Shown one piece after another: positions 1-4,445 of a DNA stretch of 4,445 nt. The position numbers and the translations under genes are program-made. Below the pieces are notes generated by a model. It did no database searches. It was not told the DNA's origin and saw only the letters and a list, made by a program, of their open reading frames with translations. The first letter of the stretch is position 1; each line of letters opens with the position of its first letter. Origin of the DNA: Escherichia coli (GTDB lineage Bacteria; Pseudomonadota; Gammaproteobacteria; Enterobacterales; Enterobacteriaceae); assembly GCF_030384885.1 (NCBI RefSeq), contig NZ_CP128616.1; one strand, written 5' to 3'.

Positions 1-262
1 AACAGTGAGCCATGTAGATGGTTGGAATGGCCTTCCTCAATACGAAATCAGGGGAAATAAAATCTACAGGACAGTGAGCCATGTAGATGGTTGGAATGGT
101 CTTCCTCAATACGAAATCAGGGGAAATAAAATCTACAGGACAGTGAGCCATGTAGATGGTTGGAATGGTCTTCCTCAATACGAAATCAGGGGAAATAAAA
201 TCTACACAACAGTGAGTCATGTAAACGGTTGGAACGGTCTTCCGCAATATGAGATCAGATAA
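1..262 (+). CDS. 3' portion of a small tandem-repeat protein (5'-partial in window; appears to continue from 4426-4445 across a circular junction); hypothetical
   Basis: Frame is open from position 2 to TAA at 260-262. Encodes VSHVDGWNGLPQYEIRGNKIYRT three times plus a diverged shorter copy. Differences between copies are mostly synonymous (GGC/GGT, AGC/AGT, AAT/AAC, CCT/CCG, TAC/TAT, GAA/GAG, AGG/AGA) against two amino-acid changes (R to T, D to N), which argues for selection on the protein. Confidence 0.6.
   Translation, partial: TVSHVDGWNGLPQYEIRGNKIYRTVSHVDGWNGLPQYEIRGNKIYRTVSHVDGWNGLPQYEIRGNKIYTTVSHVNGWNGLPQYEIR
2..259 (+). repeat. 69-bp tandem direct repeat, about 3.7 copies (units starting at 2, 71, 140, 209); in-frame coding repeat
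   Basis: Units 1-3 are near-identical (one GGC/GGT difference); unit 4 has eight substitutions. 69 bp = 23 codons, so the repeat is in frame. Confidence 0.9.
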
Positions 263-294: not shown

Positions 295-324
295 ATTTAC
301 CATAACATCTGTATTGTACGCACC
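295..324 (-). other. cer-like XerC/XerD site-specific recombination core (plasmid multimer resolution site)
   Basis: Reverse complement of 295-324 is GGTGCGTACAA-tacagatg-TTATGGTAAAT. Both 11-bp arms match the ColE1 cer XerC and XerD arms as I recall them (GGTGCGTACAA / TTATGGTAAAT) with an 8-bp central region, as in cer. Confidence 0.8.
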
Positions 325-520
325 GTTAAAACGCGCTCAGCGCGATTCTGGCGCAAAAACCGTAAAAAGGGATGTTTTCCCCGGGGTAAACCGGAAAAAT
401 GCGTCAGGATTGTTTTCAGCGCGTTGCATGACTATGCATGAAACTGAATGGCAATCGATCCGGGCGCGTCCGCTGTCCCTGAGGCTTATTTTTGGCAGTT
501 TTCTTTCTGTCTGCGTCACA
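325..520. promoter_or_regulatory. Putative cer accessory region (ArgR/PepA side), with a candidate ARG-box-like dyad at 425-440
   Basis: Lies on the XerC-arm side of the core, where cer accessory sequences sit. tgcatgactatgcatg at 425-440 loosely resembles an ARG box (TNTGAATWWWWATTCANW). Extent and ARG box are inferred, not matched to a reference. Confidence 0.35.
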
Positions 521-558
521 TTCCATGCCAGAACACATCCGTCAGCAACGACATTCAA

Positions 559-780
559 CAGCCCACCATTAGCCCACACACAAAATACCGATGGGCACAC
601 CGATGTATCATAAAAATTTATCCGTTATATTTCATACAAATAAGAGGCCACCATCAGCCCACTCTATTAGCCCACAAAACGCCCACACTTTTGCTATCAC
701 TATGATTATCAATATAAAACCCACAAAAGTGGGCTGATGATGGGCTAACTGTGGGCGTAGAAGCCCATCATCAGCCCACC
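559..780. repeat. Array of GCCCAC/GTGGGC hexamer motifs (at least 9 copies) with AT-rich spacers and a perfect 17-bp inverted repeat (729-745 / 763-779)
   Basis: GCCCAC at 561, 572, 657, 670, 681, 773; GTGGGC at 729, 751; GCCCAT/ATGGGC variants at 740 and 763. Spacings of 11, 13, 11, 22, 22 bp. gtgggctgatgatgggc (729-745) is the exact reverse complement of gcccatcatcagcccac (763-779). Confidence 0.7.
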
Positions 781-1021
781 ACATCCGACAAAATAGAATT
801 TTTTGCCAGATAAACACCACTATAACGCACTGAATTTAAAGTAAAATCACGCAAAACGCAGTTTTGCGACAGGTGTGGTAAATGCAGGTCAGAGGAGAGG
901 GGAATTTCAGGCGCGGAGCCGGTCCTGGTTCGGGCTACAGGACTCTCAGAAAAAGCGAATAAATTTGCGCTGGCCGTCAGAGCATTACGCCGGGGTATCG
1001 GGGTGAAACCCTGAGCAGGAG

Positions 1022-1061
1022 GTAATTGTAATAGCGTCACGGGTGACGGTATTACAATTAC
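1022..1061. repeat. 19-bp near-perfect inverted repeat (palindrome) with 2-bp centre
   Basis: gtaattgtaatagcgtcac gg gtgacggtattacaattac; arms are reverse complements with one mismatch (G/G at 1034/1049). Confidence 0.8.
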
Positions 1062-1411
1062 ACATCCTGTCCTGTGTCAGGCAGCCGGATACGGTCGTCC
1101 TGGTGGCAACAGTCGGGCAGGGGGTACAACTGTACCCCGTCACATCCGCAAAAGATTTACGGCACGAAACAGGAGCGACGCAACAACTGCCGGTAACACG
1201 ACCCCATGAACGGGACAGGATGTGTAATCGTATAACCGCGCACGCACGTTCATCCGATTACAACCTGGTCAGGGCTTTACCCCGACACCCACGATGTGAT
1301 GAACGGATGAACATAAAACAACCGGAAAAACGCTCACTGTCCAGGCAAAGAACGGAACACGGCATAATCACATGATGCTGAATACAGAGACAGAACGGAG
1401 AACGACAGAAG

Positions 1412-1615
1412 GTGAACAAACAGCAGCAAACTGCACTTAACATGGCGCGATTCATCAAAAGCCAGAGTCTGACACTGCTTGAAAAGCTGGATGCCCTCGA
1501 TGCCGACGAACAGGCAACCATGTGTGAACGGCTGCACGAACTGGCGGAAGAACTGCAGAACAGCATACAGACGCATTTTGAAGCGCAGTACGGCATTGGA
1601 GTGGAACAACCATAA
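1412..1615 (+). CDS. rop: Rop/Rom, RNA one modulator (ColE1 copy-number control protein), 67 aa, GTG start
   Basis: Translation MNKQQQTALNMARFIKSQSLTLLEKLDALDADEQATMCERLHELAEEL... aligns along its length with pBR322 Rop (MTKQEKTALNMARFIRSQTLTLLEKLNELDADEQADICESLHDHADEL...). GTG start as in pBR322; GGAG 12 nt upstream; sits immediately upstream of the ColE1-type origin as in pMB1. Confidence 0.9.
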   Translation: MNKQQQTALNMARFIKSQSLTLLEKLDALDADEQATMCERLHELAEELQNSIQTHFEAQYGIGVEQP

Positions 1616-1831
1616 AGACGCTGGCGAAAGCGGTCGCGGCTTGTCCGTGAGCGTTTTCGCCAGCAGACAAGCCCGCAGGGCGCGTCAGGACAGTGACCTG
1701 AGAAAGACACTGGCGCGTAAGTGCTCAAAGCAAACGGGCGGAGAAATTCCGCTTCCTCGCCCACTCGCTCACTACGTTCGGTCGCTGGGGCTGCGGCGAG
1801 CGGTGGCGGCTCTCTCATAACTGCAGACGGG

Positions 1832-1840
1832 TTATCCACA
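1832..1840 (+). promoter_or_regulatory. DnaA box (TTATCCACA) in the ColE1 origin region
   Basis: Exact TTATCCACA consensus at the position corresponding to the DnaA box of pBR322 ori (ACGGTTATCCACAGAATC). Confidence 0.7.
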
Positions 1841-1884
1841 AAATTGGGGGACAACCAGGACAGAACAAAGGCCGCGGCAGAGCC

Positions 1885-2440
1885 GTTTTTCCATAGGCTC
1901 CGCCCCCCTGACGAGCATCACAAAAACAGACGCTCAAGTCAGGGGGAGGCGAAACCCGACAGGACTATAAAGATACCAGGTGTTTCCCCCTGGAAGCTCC
2001 CTCGTGCGCTCTCCTGTTCCGACCCTGCCGCTTACCGGATACCTGTCCGCCTTTCTCCCTTCGGGAAGCGTGGCGCTTTCTCATAGCTCACGCTGTAGGT
2101 ATCTCAGTTCGGTGTAGGTCGTTCGCTCCAAGCTGGGCTGTGTGCACGAACCCCCCGTTCAGCCCGACCGCTGCGCCTTATCCGGTAACTATCGTCTTGA
2201 GTCCAACCCGGTAAGACACGACTTATCGCCACTGGCAGCAGCCACTGGTAACAGGATTAGCAGAGCGAGGTATGTAGGCGGTGCTACAGAGTTCTTGAAG
2301 TGGTGGCCTAACTACGGCTACACTGGAAGGACAGTATTTGGTATCTGCGCTCTGCTGAAGCCAGTTACCAGGTTAAGCAGTTCCCCAACTGACTTAACCT
2401 TCGAAAAACCGCCTCCCCAGGCGGTTTTTTCGTTTACAGA
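1885..2440 (-). ncRNA. RNAII replication primer precursor (ends approximate)
   Basis: RNAII promoter on the - strand: -35 TTGAGA (rc of 2469-2474), 17-bp spacer, -10 TAATCT (rc of 2446-2451), same hexamers as pBR322. 5' end placed about 2440 and 3' end about 555 nt downstream by analogy with ColE1. Confidence 0.75.
2331..2432 (+). ncRNA. RNAI antisense copy-number control RNA
   Basis: Begins ACAGTATTTGGTATCTGCGCTCTGCTGAAGCCAGTTACC as pBR322 RNAI. Upstream promoter -35 TTGAAG (2295-2300), 17-bp spacer, -10 CTACAC (2318-2323) as in pBR322. Terminator stem CCGCCT cccc AGGCGG followed by TTTTTT (2409-2430). Internal loop sequences differ from pMB1. Confidence 0.85.
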
Positions 2441-2512
2441 GCAAGAGATTACGCGTACAGAGCACGGATCTCAAGAAGATCGTAAGAAGAAAGTTAACAT
2501 GAGTGTTTTTAT

Positions 2513-2558
2513 CCCTCAAAAAGAAGGCTTCTATAAATAGAAGCCTTCTTTTTGAGGG
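2513..2558. terminator. 46-bp perfect palindrome / strong hairpin; likely bidirectional terminator between the higA 3' end and the RNAII promoter
   Basis: ccctcaaaaagaaggcttcta taaa tagaagccttctttttgaggg; 21-bp arms are exact reverse complements. T-rich sequence follows on the + strand; higA stop lies 26 bp away on the - strand. Confidence 0.65.
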
Positions 2559-2583
2559 ATAACTTATATTTTTTTAAAAAAAA

Positions 2584-2940
2584 TCATGCAATAGCATGTT
2601 TCTTCTCAGAATTATCAACAATGTGTTTCCTTTCTATGATTTCATGAGCGGGAATCACTCTGTCTATTTCTTCTTGCAATCGAGGGCTACTAGTAACCTC
2701 CCATAAATCAACAGACTGCTGTATATTTAGCCAGAACTTTGCAGTGGTATTGAAGGCTTTAGCCAACCTAAAAGCCATATCGGTAGACAGCTTTCTATTA
2801 TTGTTAACTAAAGCACTGGCAGAGTTTCTATGCACATTCAACATTTCAGCCAAGTCATTGATTTTTAAACCACTTGGTTCGAGATATTCATAAAGAATAA
2901 TATCCCCTACAGTTGATGGCTTTCTAGTTGCTTGGGACAT
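2584..2940 (-). CDS. higA: HigA-family antitoxin (XRE-type helix-turn-helix), 118 aa
   Basis: Translation ...TVGDIILYEYLEPSGLKINDLAEMLNVHRNSASALVNNNRKLSTDMAFRLAKAFNTTAKFWLNIQQSVDLW... has the pattern I recall for HigA/VapI antitoxins (PG.IL.EEFLEP.GL...LA..LGV.R......NG.R.I....A.RLA..FG.....WLNLQ). AGGAG sits 6 nt upstream of the ATG. Downstream of a HigB-family gene on the same strand. Confidence 0.85.
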   Translation of the reverse strand: MSQATRKPSTVGDIILYEYLEPSGLKINDLAEMLNVHRNSASALVNNNRKLSTDMAFRLAKAFNTTAKFWLNIQQSVDLWEVTSSPRLQEEIDRVIPAHEIIERKHIVDNSEKKHAIA

Positions 2941-3142
2941 GCTTTACTCCTAAATTTTTTACTTCTCTCTGTTAGATGAGGAAGATAAGTATTTCGTCTA
3001 TTACCAGCTGTAGCGATGAGTAATTATCTTAAATATAGTCACGTCATTTAGTTTATTAATCATTATTTGTAATGACATTTTAATGTAGGTGAGGGAACGC
3101 CTCACCTACTTGTTTTATAAGATAACAGCCACGACCTGTTAT
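2941..3142 (-). promoter_or_regulatory. higB-higA intergenic spacer (200 bp) with dyad elements; candidate independent higA promoter/operator
   Basis: Palindromes TCATTAtttgTAATGA (3060-3075) and GATAACAGccacgacCTGTTATC (3121-3143); - strand candidate -10 GATAAT; strong RBS for higA. No promoter has been demonstrated. Confidence 0.4.
3085..3109. terminator. Hairpin (10-bp perfect stem, 5-nt loop) inside the higB-higA spacer; terminator-like
   Basis: gtaggtgagg gaacg cctcacctac; followed on the + strand by TTGTTTTAT and on the - strand by A/U-rich sequence. Lies 33 nt downstream of the higB stop on the - strand. Confidence 0.5.
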
Positions 3143-3460
3143 CTATCGGTAATCATGTGGATCGAGATACAAATCCTCGATTCCGTTTTCACCCCACTTA
3201 AATATTAAGCGGTACTTCTCATTCACCCGTATGGATGAATACCCTGTCAATGGAGGGTTGAGATTCTCAAATCGGTTTCCCGGGGGAGACCGCAAATCTC
3301 CAACTTTATCAGCAGCATTCAGCATATCCAGCTTGCGACCTAATGAAGCACTAATCGCAGTTGGAATCTTTCGATTGGCTTTACCATATTTGTAAAACTG
3401 GTATAGCCAATCGTCTCGAAACTGAATGCGGCAATCATCATGTTCATGATCTTGCTGCAT
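3143..3460 (-). CDS. higB: HigB-family toxin (RelE/ParE superfamily, plasmid maintenance system killer type), 105 aa
   Basis: C-terminal region ...DLRSPPGNRFENLNPPLTGYSSIRVNEKYRLIFKWGENGIEDLYLDPHDYR matches the family signature I recall (DLRSPPGNRLE.L.G.R.GQ.SIR.N..WRL.F.W.......I.DYH). GAGGT RBS 9 nt upstream of the ATG. Toxin precedes antitoxin, as in hig loci. Confidence 0.85.
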   Translation of the reverse strand: MQQDHEHDDCRIQFRDDWLYQFYKYGKANRKIPTAISASLGRKLDMLNAADKVGDLRSPPGNRFENLNPPLTGYSSIRVNEKYRLIFKWGENGIEDLYLDPHDYR

Positions 3461-3646
3461 TTTTCTTTTACCTCAATTTTTGCCGCAACTTGGCAATTTT
3501 TTAGATCACCTTCTTACCTCCGATATAGTACAGCAAACACAAGAAATGCACAACAGCACAGTGCACTTGTGCAACCAATAACCATACTGTAGAATGCACC
3601 CACACACAGTGCAGATGTGCAAAATAGAGGGTAATTTGGAGGTTAC
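3461..3646. promoter_or_regulatory. Divergent promoter/operator region between higB (-) and the 80-aa ORF (+), with repeated TGCAC/GTGCA dyads
   Basis: Perfect palindrome TGCACttGTGCA (3562-3573), near-palindrome TGCAGatGTGCA (3610-3621) and further TGCAC copies at 3547 and 3595. Two copies of a roughly 19-bp repeat cacagtgca(c/g)(t/a)tgtgcaa (3557-3574, 3605-3622). Candidate higB promoter on the - strand: -35 TTGTGC (rc of 3548-3553), 17-bp spacer, -10 TACTAT (rc of 3525-3530). Candidate + strand promoter: -35 TTGTGC (3567-3572), 17 bp, -10 TAGAAT (3590-3595). Confidence 0.55.
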
Positions 3647-3889
3647 ATGGCTCTTGTTCGTTCAGGAAACAAAAGCAAGATTTTTGAAGCAGATAAGAAG
3701 TTTAACTCGGTTTTTGACACTGAATATCAGCCGGGAGAAACATGTAAATATGAAGGGATTTATAAATGTACCGGTTGCGGTAAAGAAGTAACTATCGCAG
3801 GTGGGAAAAAAATCCCACCACAAAACCACCACCAACATACCCCCGCGCAAGGGAACATTCGTTGGCAATTGTTTGTTTATGCTCAGTGA
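3647..3889 (+). CDS. Hypothetical small protein (80 aa) with Cys-x6-Cys-x2-Cys and a His-rich C-terminal segment; possible metal-binding or zinc-ribbon-like
   Basis: GGAGG RBS 4-5 nt upstream of the ATG; ORF starts right after the palindromic operator region, divergent from higB. Sequence ...CKYEGIYKCTGCGKEVTIAGGKKIPPQNHHQH.... No family recognised from memory. Confidence 0.55.
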   Translation: MALVRSGNKSKIFEADKKFNSVFDTEYQPGETCKYEGIYKCTGCGKEVTIAGGKKIPPQNHHQHTPAQGNIRWQLFVYAQ

Positions 3890-3899
3890 GGAATAGAAA

Positions 3900-4031
3900 A
3901 TGGCAGATCGTCGACCGCTCAACCCACACGTTGTCGTTCCTAAACCAGGCGGCGGAACTCAACCTCGTGACCGTAACAATGACGGAAGGGTCAGAGGAAA
4001 ACGCTCAGATGCAGGAAAGCCAAGAAAATAA
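3900..4031 (+). CDS. Possible small basic ORF (43 aa, MADRRPLNPHVVVPKPGGGTQPRDRNNDGRVRGKRSDAGKPRK); hypothetical
   Basis: GAGGA RBS 7 nt upstream of the ATG, beginning 11 nt after the stop of the 80-aa ORF; stop TAA at 4029-4031 lies just before an intrinsic terminator. Very short and low complexity, so coding status is uncertain. Confidence 0.3.
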   Translation: MADRRPLNPHVVVPKPGGGTQPRDRNNDGRVRGKRSDAGKPRK

Positions 4032-4035
4032 CAGC

Positions 4036-4064
4036 AAGCCGCCAGCCTGGCGGCTTTTTTATTT
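4036..4064 (+). terminator. Rho-independent terminator ending the 80-aa / 43-aa transcription unit
   Basis: aaGCCGCCAG cc CTGGCGGCtt stem followed by TTTTTTATTT. Confidence 0.75.
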
Positions 4065-4083
4065 ATATCTACAGCTGACACTG

Positions 4084-4099
4084 ATTTACCATAGCATCC
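4084..4099 (+). repeat. Copy 1 of a 16-bp motif ATTTACCATA(G/A)CATC(C/T) (XerD-arm-like)
   Basis: atttaccatagcatcc; 15/16 identical to 4365-4380 and 14/16 to 295-310 (the XerD arm plus adjacent central bases of the cer-like site). Lies 33 nt upstream of the 4132 start codon. Confidence 0.7.
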
Positions 4100-4131
4100 A
4101 CTGTATCTACTCAGTCTTGATAGGTGTTTTT

Positions 4132-4335
4132 ATGAGTAATGAATTAGACAGCCTTTCAGAAGTAGTTAAAGGACTCACAAAGATAGAGCTGCCTGGCGGC
4201 GGTGGCGGTGAAACCGATAGCCCTGTAGTTGAGGCAGCTATAGCTGTTGGCATTGTAGGGGCTGCTGCATATGGGATTTATAAGCTTTTTGGTCGCGCAG
4301 AACCCCAGAAAGATGAGGACAAACTCGGTTTCTAG
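4132..4335 (+). CDS. Hypothetical small membrane peptide (67 aa): acidic N-terminal segment, Gly5 run, one predicted transmembrane helix
   Basis: ATG at 4132 preceded by AGGTG; translation MSNELDSLSEVVKGLTKIELPGGGGGETDSPVVEAAIAVGIVGAAAYGIYKLFGRAEPQKDEDKLGF. The longer track ORF 3862-4335 is rejected because it spans the terminator at 4036-4064. Confidence 0.6.
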   Translation: MSNELDSLSEVVKGLTKIELPGGGGGETDSPVVEAAIAVGIVGAAAYGIYKLFGRAEPQKDEDKLGF

Positions 4336-4364
4336 AACCATAAGGCAGCATCAAAACGGCATTC

Positions 4365-4380
4365 ATTTACCATAACATCC
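4365..4380 (+). repeat. Copy 2 of the 16-bp motif ATTTACCATAACATCC (exact XerD-arm match, no convincing XerC arm)
   Basis: Reverse complement reads ...ggatg TTATGGTAAAT. The 11-bp arm is identical to the cer XerD arm; the flanking candidate XerC arm matches cer at only about 5 of 11 positions. Lies 46 nt upstream of the ATG at 4426. Confidence 0.7.
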
Positions 4381-4425
4381 GTTAACTGCGGCCTTGTCAT
4401 AAAAGAAATGGATATTGGAGACAAT

Positions 4426-4445
4426 ATGAGCAATAAGATCTATAG
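4426..4445 (+). CDS. 5' end of the tandem-repeat protein gene (3'-partial in window; continues in frame at position 1 if the molecule is circular)
   Basis: ATG at 4426 with GGAG 6 nt upstream; encodes MSNKIY then R from the junction codon (4444-4445 plus position 1), followed by TVSHVDGW... at 2 onward. The repeat unit sequence itself continues across the junction (aataagatctatag|a versus aataaaatctacagga). Confidence 0.6.

What the first reader, a model, noticed from the sequence alone, without database searches (positions are those of the whole stretch)
295..520. cer-type multimer resolution site with arms identical to ColE1 cer but a different 8-bp central region
Both 11-bp arms match cer exactly as I recall it, while the central region is tacagatg rather than ttaaggga. 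The central region sets strand-exchange specificity, so this site may recombine only with itself. Accessory sequences and a possible ARG box lie on the XerC side.
Basis: partly seen in the sequence, partly recalled or inferred. Interest (0 to 1): 0.35.

Follow-up and report, generated by a model that had tools for sequence, protein, structure and literature searches.

The report
Ordinary cer-family plasmid dimer-resolution site
This is a normal member of the well-known family of sites that small E. coli plasmids use, with the host's XerC/XerD enzymes, to split plasmid dimers; its unusual middle 8 bases look like a scar of past recombination with another site, not a private specificity code.

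Summary
On the minus strand at 295-324 lies GGTGCGTACAA-TACAGATG-TTATGGTAAAT. Both 11-bp arms are identical to the real ColE1 cer (NC_001371, 3909-3938), and the 8-bp centre differs. About 180 bp of accessory sequence follows on the XerC side (325-~507). It carries an ArgR box (425-438) 107 bp from the XerC arm, against 106 bp in ColE1.

The window is a complete circular ColE1-type plasmid with RNAI, Rop and HigBA. It belongs to a lineage found in E. coli O111.

The accessory sequence is of the NTP16-nmr type (80% identical), not the ColE1 type (54%). Different centres between cer-identical arms are routine. A published catalogue lists at least eight, though not this one. CAGATG is a common 6-bp centre, as in mwr and pSE11-5. 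Relatives with the same right-hand flank carry AACAGATG or a 6-bp CAGATG site. The site therefore looks like a natural hybrid at a backbone/cargo junction.

Two accessory-less Xer scars (4084-4113, 4365-4394) bound small gene modules. These data give no support to the "recombines only with itself" idea and point the other way. An Rcd promoter is not evident.

This is an ordinary new allele of a known kind. Function is inferred, not tested.

The parts
295..305 (-). XerD-binding arm, TTATGGTAAAT
   Evidence: Identical to the ColE1 cer XerD arm. It is also identical in ColA, ColE3, CloDF13, NTP16 and pJHCMW1 as tabulated in PMC11724359.
306..313 (-). 8-bp central region, TACAGATG (strand-exchange region)
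   Evidence: It differs from cer TTAAGGGA. Its right-hand 6-7 nt equal the common 6-bp centre CAGATG of mwr- and pSE11-5-type sites.
314..324 (-). XerC-binding arm, GGTGCGTACAA
   Evidence: Identical to the ColE1 cer XerC arm.
325..507 (-). Accessory sequences (the ArgR/PepA wrapping region), of the NTP16-nmr type
   Evidence: Over the last 190 nt of the site, core included, the window is 80% identical to NTP16 nmr, 82% to p1303_5, 92% to CP098960 and 54% to ColE1. BLAST homology to 2,542 plasmid records ends at about 503-507. A/T tracts lie at the same offsets from the XerC arm as in ColE1: -92, -66, -54, -44 and -7.
425..438 (-). ARG box (ArgR binding site), TGCATAGTCATGCA
   Evidence: Its centre lies 107 bp from the XerC arm. 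The distance is 106 bp in ColE1 and 107 bp in NTP16, p1303_5, CP098960 and AP027585. The sequence is identical to the ArgR site marked for p1303_5 in the PMC11724359 supplement.
328..346 (-). Family-conserved GC hairpin plus T-run (ATCGCGCTGAGCGCGTTTT) just before the XerC arm. In ColE1 this is where the Rcd transcript would end.
   Evidence: It is the most conserved accessory block in the alignments. Calling it a terminator is an inference.
4365..4394 (-). Secondary Xer-type site B, AGGCCGCAGTT-AACGGATG-TTATGGTAAAT. The XerD arm is perfect, the XerC side is degenerate and there are no accessory sequences. It has the same orientation as the main site.
   Evidence: Its right half, CGGATG+TTATGGTAAAT, equals the ColA and pIGRW12 sites.
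4084..4113 (-). Secondary Xer-type site C, TGAGTAGATAC-AGTGGATG-CTATGGTAAAT. This is a Xer scar at the edge of the higBA cargo.
   Evidence: About 50 plasmids share the cargo only up to window 4099, which lies inside this site. In pK475-2_4k a complete ArgR-type site abuts the same flank. In the cointegrates CP173534 and pGCUET01-3 the same right half is joined to a proper XerC arm, GGTGCCGATAA.
2333..2433 (+). RNAI of the ColE1-type replicon. It fixes the orientation: RNAII runs on the minus strand.
   Evidence: Rfam RF00106, 91.2 bits, E = 8e-17. RNAII and the accessory-to-core direction are both on the minus strand, which matches the orientation rule described in PMC2831885.

Best explanation
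Window 295-507 (minus strand) is the multimer-resolution site of a small multicopy ColE1-type plasmid.

Inferred mechanism, by homology with cer, nmr and mwr:
- In a plasmid dimer the two directly repeated copies are wrapped together by ArgR (bound at the ARG box, 425-438) and PepA over the ~180-bp accessory sequence.
- XerC and XerD bind the two 11-bp arms.
- XerC exchanges one pair of strands at the XerC-arm/central-region boundary, which makes a Holliday junction.
- Xer-independent processing or replication of that junction yields monomers.

The unusual central region is best read as a recombination scar. The site combines nmr-type accessory DNA, a cer-type XerC arm (plus T) and the (A)CAGATG+XerD-arm half of the common 6-bp sites. 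It sits exactly at the joint between the plasmid backbone and its cargo. The two further accessory-less Xer scars in the same orientation fit serial Xer-mediated insertion of small modules at this site.

Shown here: sequence identity, architecture, homology and the mosaic breakpoints. Inferred: protein binding, catalysis and the direction of the historical events.
For: - Both arms are identical to the real cer.
- The 8-bp spacing matches cer.
- The ARG box is identical to a published ArgR site, and its distance from the arm is conserved: 107 bp here against 106-108 bp in seven relatives.
- A/T tracts lie at the same offsets as in ColE1.
- The accessory sequence is 80% identical to NTP16 nmr, one of the previously characterised sites used as search seeds in PMC11724359.
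- The orientation relative to the origin follows the family rule.
- The host plasmid has RNAI, Rop and HigBA and no recombinase gene.
- The exact 30-mer is conserved in 11 plasmid records among 5,426 complete E. coli genomes and in one metagenomic plasmid.
- Mosaic evidence: window 295-2481 is 94% identical to CP098960, while window 1747-4445 plus 1-325 is 87-99% identical to CP075744 (99.5% over 2221-4445). The two blocks overlap only in the ori region and in the 30-bp core.
- The same right flank is joined to TACAGATG, to AACAGATG or to a 6-bp CAGATG site.
- Of 123 metagenomic ACAGATG+XerD-arm sites, most (over 80) sit behind a GGTGC-type XerC arm ending in A, which makes them 6-bp CAGATG sites. 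Only one has TACAGATG, and it is this same plasmid.
- For the mechanism of cer/mwr (XerC-only exchange, accessory proteins) see PMC2699498, PMC7399989 and PMC5357621.
Against: - There is no experimental test of this site.
- Related natural sites can be inefficient in E. coli. mwr shares the CAGATG centre, and its resolution depends on osmolarity, which has been attributed partly to its core.
- The ColE1 Pcer promoter (TTGCAT-15 nt-TAAAAT) has no counterpart here. The Rcd-equivalent RNA also folds weakly, with z = -1.6 against -4.9 for ColE1. The checkpoint half of cer function may therefore be missing.
- The T at the first position of the centre could be a point mutation of AACAGATG rather than a crossover product.
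Confidence: 0.8

Rival explanations
1. The site is a crippled relic. It looks like cer, but the hybrid centre or the diverged accessory sequence makes resolution too inefficient to stabilise the plasmid, as reported for mwr in standard medium. On this view HigBA post-segregational killing carries the maintenance load.
For: mwr shares CAGATG and resolves poorly at normal osmolarity, an effect attributed partly to its core and its ArgR site (PMC2699498). The plasmid carries a HigB/HigA toxin-antitoxin pair. No Pcer-like promoter was found.
Against: Both arms are perfect, whereas mwr has a diverged XerC arm. The spacing is 8 bp, as in cer. The ARG box is a perfect TGCAT...ATGCA palindrome at the conserved distance. 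The whole site is conserved in a plasmid lineage that is about 98% identical overall.
Confidence: 0.12
2. The novel central region gives the site a private specificity, so it recombines only with identical copies and is insulated from other cer-type sites in the same cell.
For: Tyrosine recombinases in general need central-region homology to complete both strand exchanges. That is established knowledge and was not tested here. The exact core is also rare: it occurs in 1 of 72,556 PLSDB plasmids and is absent from a catalogue of 185 unique sites.
Against: At cer-type sites only XerC exchanges strands, at the edge of the centre, and the junction is then processed without XerD. The literature read here cites in vivo cer x nmr recombination and cer hybrids. 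Sites that share this right flank differ precisely in the first 0-2 nt of the centre and in the XerC arm. The identical core has two different right flanks. Cointegrates are joined at a neighbouring Xer scar.
Confidence: 0.06
3. The main present-day role of the site is gene capture. It would serve as an attachment point where small circular modules carrying a XerD-arm half-site integrate, with dimer resolution secondary.
For: Three Xer cores in the same orientation bound two small modules. About 50 plasmids carry the same cargo flank directly next to a complete site, without the two modules. Cointegrates are joined at site C.
Against: The accessory architecture that enforces intramolecular resolution is fully conserved. 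Insertions are rare: 2-3 of 52 PLSDB relatives. Capture is a by-product compatible with the main explanation, not an alternative function.
Confidence: 0.1

Closest known systems
ColE1 cer
   Same: Both 11-bp arms are identical, and the central region is 8 bp long. An ARG box lies about 106-107 bp from the XerC arm. A/T tracts sit at matching offsets. The orientation relative to the ColE1-type origin is the same.
   Different: The central region is TACAGATG, not TTAAGGGA. Over the last 190 nt of the site, core included, identity is only about 54%. The Pcer promoter (TTGCAT-15-TAAAAT) and the strongly folding Rcd RNA are not recognisable.
NTP16 nmr (and the p1303_5 site)
   Same: The accessory sequence is of the same type: 80% identical to nmr and 82% to p1303_5. 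The ARG-box distance is the same at 107 bp. The ARG box is identical to that of p1303_5.
   Different: The nmr core is GGTGCGCGTAA-TGAGACG-TTATGGTAAAT, with a different XerC arm and a 7-bp centre. p1303_5 has the cer core with TTAAGGGA.
pJHCMW1 mwr and pSE11-5-type sites (6-bp CAGATG centre)
   Same: They share CAGATG+TTATGGTAAAT. CP075744, which has a pSE11-5-type site, also carries the same right-hand flank as the window.
   Different: Those sites have 6-bp centres and XerC arms GGTGCACGCAA or GGTGCGGGCAA. Here the arm is the cer arm and two extra bases (TA) make the centre 8 bp.
Xer-bounded modules (Acinetobacter pdif modules; Xer-mediated evolution of small ColE1-like plasmids, Tran et al. 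2012, as cited in PMC6764390 and PMC7399989)
   Same: Small gene modules are delimited by XerC/D-type cores. Mosaic junctions and cointegrates fall at these cores.
   Different: All three cores here are direct repeats. Two of them lack a credible XerC arm. Mobility was not demonstrated.

Membership tests
ArgR/PepA-dependent plasmid Xer sites (cer family) | An 11-bp XerC arm and an 11-bp XerD arm separated by 6-8 bp | tested here: met
   GGTGCGTACAA-8 bp-TTATGGTAAAT at 295-324 on the minus strand. The arms are identical to ColE1 cer.
ArgR/PepA-dependent plasmid Xer sites (cer family) | About 180-200 bp of accessory sequence next to the XerC arm, homologous to known ArgR-type accessory sequences | tested here: met
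   Window 325-~507 is homologous to 2,542 plasmid records. Over the last 190 nt of the site it is 80% identical to NTP16 nmr and 82% to p1303_5.
ArgR/PepA-dependent plasmid Xer sites (cer family) | An ArgR box at a defined position in the accessory sequence | tested here: met
   TGCATAGTCATGCA lies with its centre 107 bp from the XerC arm. The distance is 106-108 bp in seven relatives. The box is identical to the published p1303_5 box.
ArgR/PepA-dependent plasmid Xer sites (cer family) | Phased A/T tracts between the ARG box and the core | tested here: met
   Runs lie at -92, -75, -66, -54, -44, -35 and -7. Five of these offsets are shared with ColE1. Spacing in the central cluster (-75 to -35) is about 8-12.5 bp. 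The feature itself is described in PMC2831885.
ArgR/PepA-dependent plasmid Xer sites (cer family) | Fixed orientation relative to the ColE1-type origin: RNAII meets the accessory sequence first, then the core | tested here: met
   RNAI lies on the plus strand at 2333-2433, so RNAII is on the minus strand. The site also reads accessory-to-core on the minus strand.
ArgR/PepA-dependent plasmid Xer sites (cer family) | Carried by a small multicopy plasmid that has no recombinase of its own | tested here: met
   The window is a circular plasmid of about 4.4 kb with RNAI, Rop and HigBA. RefSeq annotates five CDS and no recombinase in the 98%-identical p2009C_3675-6.
ArgR/PepA-dependent plasmid Xer sites (cer family) | Dimer resolution in vivo that depends on XerC, XerD, ArgR and PepA | not testable with these tools
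   This needs a dimer-resolution assay in xerC, xerD, argR and pepA mutants.
ColE1 cer in the narrow sense (with the Rcd checkpoint) | A Pcer promoter within the accessory sequence and a structured Rcd RNA of about 70 nt | tested here: inconclusive
   ColE1 has TTGCAT-15-TAAAAT at the ARG box. The window has ATGCAT-15-TGAAAA, which lacks the key -10 positions. The equivalent RNA folds with z = -1.6 in the window, -4.9 in ColE1 and -3.2 in NTP16. The built-in promoter scan cannot detect 15-nt spacers, and Rfam has no Rcd model.
mwr/pSE11-5-type sites | A 6-bp central region CAGATG behind a GGTGC(A/G)(C/G)GCAA arm | tested here: not met
   The arm is GGTGCGTACAA, and two extra bases (TA) precede CAGATG. 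The distance from the ARG box to the arm supports the 8-bp reading.
dif-type (FtsK-dependent) and psi-type (ArcA) Xer sites | A 6-bp centre without an ArgR-type accessory sequence, and a TTATGTTAAA(T/C) XerD arm | tested here: not met
   The centre is 8 bp, an ArgR-type accessory sequence is present, and the XerD arm is TTATGGTAAAT.

The most novel reading that the evidence does not exclude
The 8-bp hybrid centre (a cer arm joined to the CAGATG half) might change the outcome of the reaction. It could, for example, relax the topological filter or allow exchange with accessory-less half-sites. The dimer-resolution site of this E. coli plasmid lineage would then double as an integration point for small circular gene modules. 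The array of three same-orientation Xer cores would be an enterobacterial counterpart of Acinetobacter pdif modules.
Probability: 0.1. Interest if true: 0.45.

Novelty: new member of a known kind. Interest (0 to 1): 0.15.

Why it matters
The finding matters mainly for annotation and plasmid biology. The site is unannotated in every RefSeq and PLSDB record examined. It explains how this small O111-associated plasmid stays monomeric.

It is also a clean natural example of a cer-family core acting as the seam of plasmid mosaics. The backbone and cargo blocks meet within the 30-bp core. Relatives differ in exactly the bases next to the XerC cleavage point. Two accessory-less Xer scars bound extra modules.

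This supports the existing view that Xer sites drive module exchange among small ColE1-like plasmids. It does not open a new question.

Tried and rejected
- **Rfam scan of the whole window.** It found only RNAI. Rfam has no Rcd family, so the scan says nothing about Rcd.
- **Built-in promoter/terminator scan.** It found nothing in the window, but it also misses the known Pcer in ColE1, because it allows only 16-18-nt spacers. I replaced it with a custom 15-18-nt scan.
- **Genome-contig scan for cer-arm sites.** It returned 17 contigs. Most are small ColE1-like contigs filed under unrelated species and look like contamination. I used them only as a sample of central regions.
- **Primary papers.** Summers & Sherratt 1988, Summers 1989, Tran 2010 and Tran 2012 are not held. 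My recollection of the "type I/II cer x parB hybrids" therefore remains a lead from memory and is not used as evidence.
- **A 6-bp reading of the site** (TGCGTACAATA-CAGATG). I rejected it because the arm would be poor, and because the GGTGC start sits at the same distance from the ARG box as in relatives.
- **A chance origin for sites B and C.** I rejected it. Three XerD-arm matches were found against 0.12 expected, and none of 200 shuffles reached three. Their right halves also equal those of real sites.

Full report
**1. What is in the sequence**

The window is a complete small circular plasmid. A metagenomic contig (L106) has a 299-bp terminal overlap, so it is a 4,468-bp circle. It is 98.5-98.8% identical to the window over its full length and reads straight across the window's ends. 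Plasmids of 4,399-5,060 bp at about 98% identity occur in E. coli O111:H8/NM genomes.

The plasmid carries these features:
- a ColE1-type replicon, with RNAI at 2333-2433 on the plus strand (91 bits);
- Rop (1412-1615);
- HigB (3143-3460, minus strand) and a HigA-like HTH protein (2584-2940, minus strand);
- no recombinase gene (RefSeq annotation of the near-identical p2009C_3675-6).

**2. Checking the observation**

The pattern GGTGCGTACAA-N8-TTATGGTAAAT matches once in the window, at 295-324 on the minus strand, with no mismatch. About 0.01 matches are expected by chance even with 3 mismatches allowed.

I checked the arms against a real reference rather than from memory. ColE1 (NC_001371.1) has GGTGCGTACAA-TTAAGGGA-TTATGGTAAAT at 3909-3938. 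Both arms are therefore identical, and the 8-bp centre is TACAGATG instead of TTAAGGGA.

**3. The rest of the site**

Window 295 to about 503-507 is homologous to 2,542 plasmid records. In 54 of 60 evenly sampled hits the alignment begins at window 294/295, the outer edge of the XerD arm.

I aligned the site with characterised or published family members. Over the last 190 nt of the site, core included, it is of the NTP16-nmr type:

| Relative | Identity to the window |
|---|---|
| CP098960 | 92% |
| AP027585 | 84% |
| p1303_5 | 82% |
| NTP16 nmr | 80% |
| ColE1 | 54% |

The ARG box is TGCATAGTCATGCA (plus-strand coordinates 425-438). It is identical to the box that Fournes et al. (NAR 2025, PMC11724359) mark as the ArgR site of p1303_5. 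Its centre lies 107 bp from the XerC arm. The distance is 106 bp in ColE1, 107 bp in NTP16, p1303_5, CP098960, AP027585 and LT985230, and 108 bp in CP075744.

A/T tracts sit at the same offsets from the XerC arm as in ColE1: -92, -66, -54, -44 and -7. This matches the phased tracts described for the family (PMC2831885).

That paper also reports that these sites always face the same way relative to the origin: RNAII meets the ArgR side first. Here RNAII and the accessory-to-core direction are both on the minus strand, so the rule holds.

**4. Is a different centre between cer arms unusual?**

No. Fournes et al. state that the central region is 6-8 bp long and not conserved. Their list of 185 unique enterobacterial sites contains cer-identical arms around TTAAGGGA, TTGAAATG, TACTGGTA, TTAGGGTG, TGCGACG, GAAGACG, TAAGAGA and CAGGAG. 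My own small sample adds TAAGGGA, TAAGGGG and TTAGAGCG.

The exact TACAGATG core is absent from their list and is rare elsewhere:
- 1 of 72,556 PLSDB plasmids;
- 10 plasmid records, plus one that wraps its record origin, among 5,426 complete E. coli genomes;
- 1 of 123 metagenomic sites that contain ACAGATG+TTATGGTAAAT, and that one is this same plasmid.

**5. Where the centre comes from**

CAGATG is a common 6-bp centre. It occurs in pJHCMW1 mwr and in pSE11-5. Most of the 123 metagenomic sites (over 80) have it behind arms such as GGTGCACGCAA, GGTGCGGGCAA or GGTGCTGATAA.

The window is a mosaic:
- 295-2481 is 94% identical to CP098960;
- 1747-4445 plus 1-325 is 87-99% identical to CP075744 (99.5% over 2221-4445);
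- the corresponding block of LT985230 is 96-99% identical and extends to window 346.

The two blocks overlap only in the ori region and in the 30-bp core.

The same right-hand flank (atgatttctttttgcagg...) is joined to three different left halves:

| Plasmid | Core to the left of that flank |
|---|---|
| window | GGTGCGTACAA-TACAGATG |
| LT985230 | GGTGCGTACAA-AACAGATG |
| CP075744 | GGTGCGGGCAA-CAGATG (6-bp site) |

AACAGATG is exactly the 8 nt that precede the XerD arm in the 6-bp site. The LT985230 core is therefore what a crossover between an 8-bp cer-type site and a 6-bp site would give. The window differs from it by one base, a T, and T is the first base of every 8-bp centre in the published list. 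Conversely, the identical 30-mer has a different right flank in AP027585.

The simplest reading is that the core is a natural hybrid and a repeatedly used crossover point.

**6. Two more Xer scars**

The XerD arm, with at most 1 mismatch, occurs three times in the window, all on the minus strand. Only 0.12 matches are expected, and none of 200 shuffles reached three.

- Site B (4365-4394) is AGGCCGCAGTT-AACGGATG-TTATGGTAAAT.
- Site C (4084-4113) is TGAGTAGATAC-AGTGGATG-CTATGGTAAAT.

Neither has a convincing XerC arm or accessory sequences.

About 50 PLSDB plasmids share the higBA cargo with the window only up to position 4099, which lies inside site C. One of them, pK475-2_4k, has a complete ArgR-type site (GGTGCGCCCAA-CGGATG-TTATGGTAAAT) directly against the same flank. 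Two larger E. coli plasmids, CP173534 and pGCUET01-3, are cointegrates. In them the right half of site C is fused to a proper arm, GGTGCCGATAA, with accessory-like DNA.

The two small modules between the three cores are therefore best explained as serial insertions into an ancestral resolution site:
- 4114-4364 encodes a 67-aa protein with a hydrophobic stretch;
- 4395-4445 plus 1-294 encodes a 23-aa-repeat protein.

That Xer recombination shapes small plasmids in this way is already proposed in the literature (PMC6764390, PMC7399989, PMC7315355).

**7. Mechanism**

By homology, ArgR and PepA wrap the accessory sequences of two directly repeated copies in a dimer. XerC and XerD bind the arms. 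XerC exchanges one strand pair to form a Holliday junction. The junction is then processed without XerD catalysis, probably by replication (PMC2699498, PMC5357621, PMC7399989).

All of this is inferred for the present site. Nothing here tests binding or catalysis.

The checkpoint half of ColE1 cer is doubtful. ColE1 has TTGCAT-15 nt-TAAAAT at its ARG box, which fits the published 15-bp spacer. The window has ATGCAT-15 nt-TGAAAA at the same place. The Rcd-equivalent RNA folds with z = -1.6, against -4.9 for ColE1 and -3.2 for NTP16.

**8.

The identification is right. The suggestion that the site "may recombine only with itself" is not supported, for four reasons:
- Resolution joins identical copies in any case.
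- At cer-type sites the single XerC exchange takes place at the edge of the centre.
- The literature read here cites cer x nmr recombination and cer hybrids.
- The comparative data in sections 5 and 6 show heterologous exchange at this very core.

**9. Verdict**

This is an ordinary and very probably functional member of the cer family. It has a new but unremarkable central-region allele of likely hybrid origin. It is unannotated in public records. Interest is low. Its modest value is as a clear example of Xer cores acting as seams of plasmid mosaics.

Noticed in passing
window 4426-4445 joined to 1-262 (plus strand); tandem repeat at 2-258: A gene crosses the window ends and encodes about four 23-aa repeats (GNKIYRTVSHVDGWNGLPQYEIR). 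It lies on a 69-bp tandem DNA repeat of 3.7 copies. It has a GGAG ribosome-binding site and is followed by a hairpin with a T-run at about 265-290. Pfam gives no confident match. Homologues at 40-88% identity exist in other organisms, for example Shewanella and a Paceibacterota MAG. The minus strand is also open through the repeats, and RefSeq annotates that strand in CP075744 and LT985230. The coding strand is therefore disputed.
   Followed up: partly
window 4084-4113 and 4365-4394 (minus strand): Two accessory-less Xer-type cores lie in the same orientation as the main site and bound two small modules. Cointegrate plasmids are joined at the first of them.
   Followed up: yes
window 560-779: An 18-nt motif, AGCCCAyCATyAGCCCAC, occurs three times as a direct repeat (560, 645, 762), with an inverted copy at 729-746. 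It looks like iterons, but the plasmid has no Rep gene. The motif is also present in CP098960. Its function is unknown.
   Followed up: no
window 1022-1061, and 1047-1075 paired with 1210-1238: A near-perfect 19-bp palindrome (GTAATTGTAATAGCGTCAC/GTGACGGTATTACAATTAC) lies here. A 29-nt inverted-repeat pair flanks a 134-bp segment. Both arms match the same region of other small plasmids in opposite orientations. This may be an oriT remnant or a small invertible or mobile element.
   Followed up: no
window 2509-2562: A long perfect palindrome (atccctcaaaaagaaggcttctat...atagaagccttctttttgagggat) lies between the origin and higA. It is probably a bidirectional terminator. It produced the spurious microRNA hits in Rfam.
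   Followed up: no
L146 (NZ_CP173534.1) and L147 (NZ_JCAMPG010000004.1): These 11-12-kb E. coli plasmids look like cointegrates of the window-type plasmid with a second ColE1-like plasmid that carries a NACHT NTPase gene. pGCUET01-3 contains two copies of most of the window plasmid.
   Followed up: partly
window 3647-3889 and 3900-4031 (plus strand): Two small ORFs lie downstream of higB: an 80-aa protein with a CxxC motif and a 43-aa basic protein. Neither matches Pfam. They are followed by a hairpin terminator at about 4035-4060. The first is annotated as hypothetical in related plasmids.
   Followed up: no
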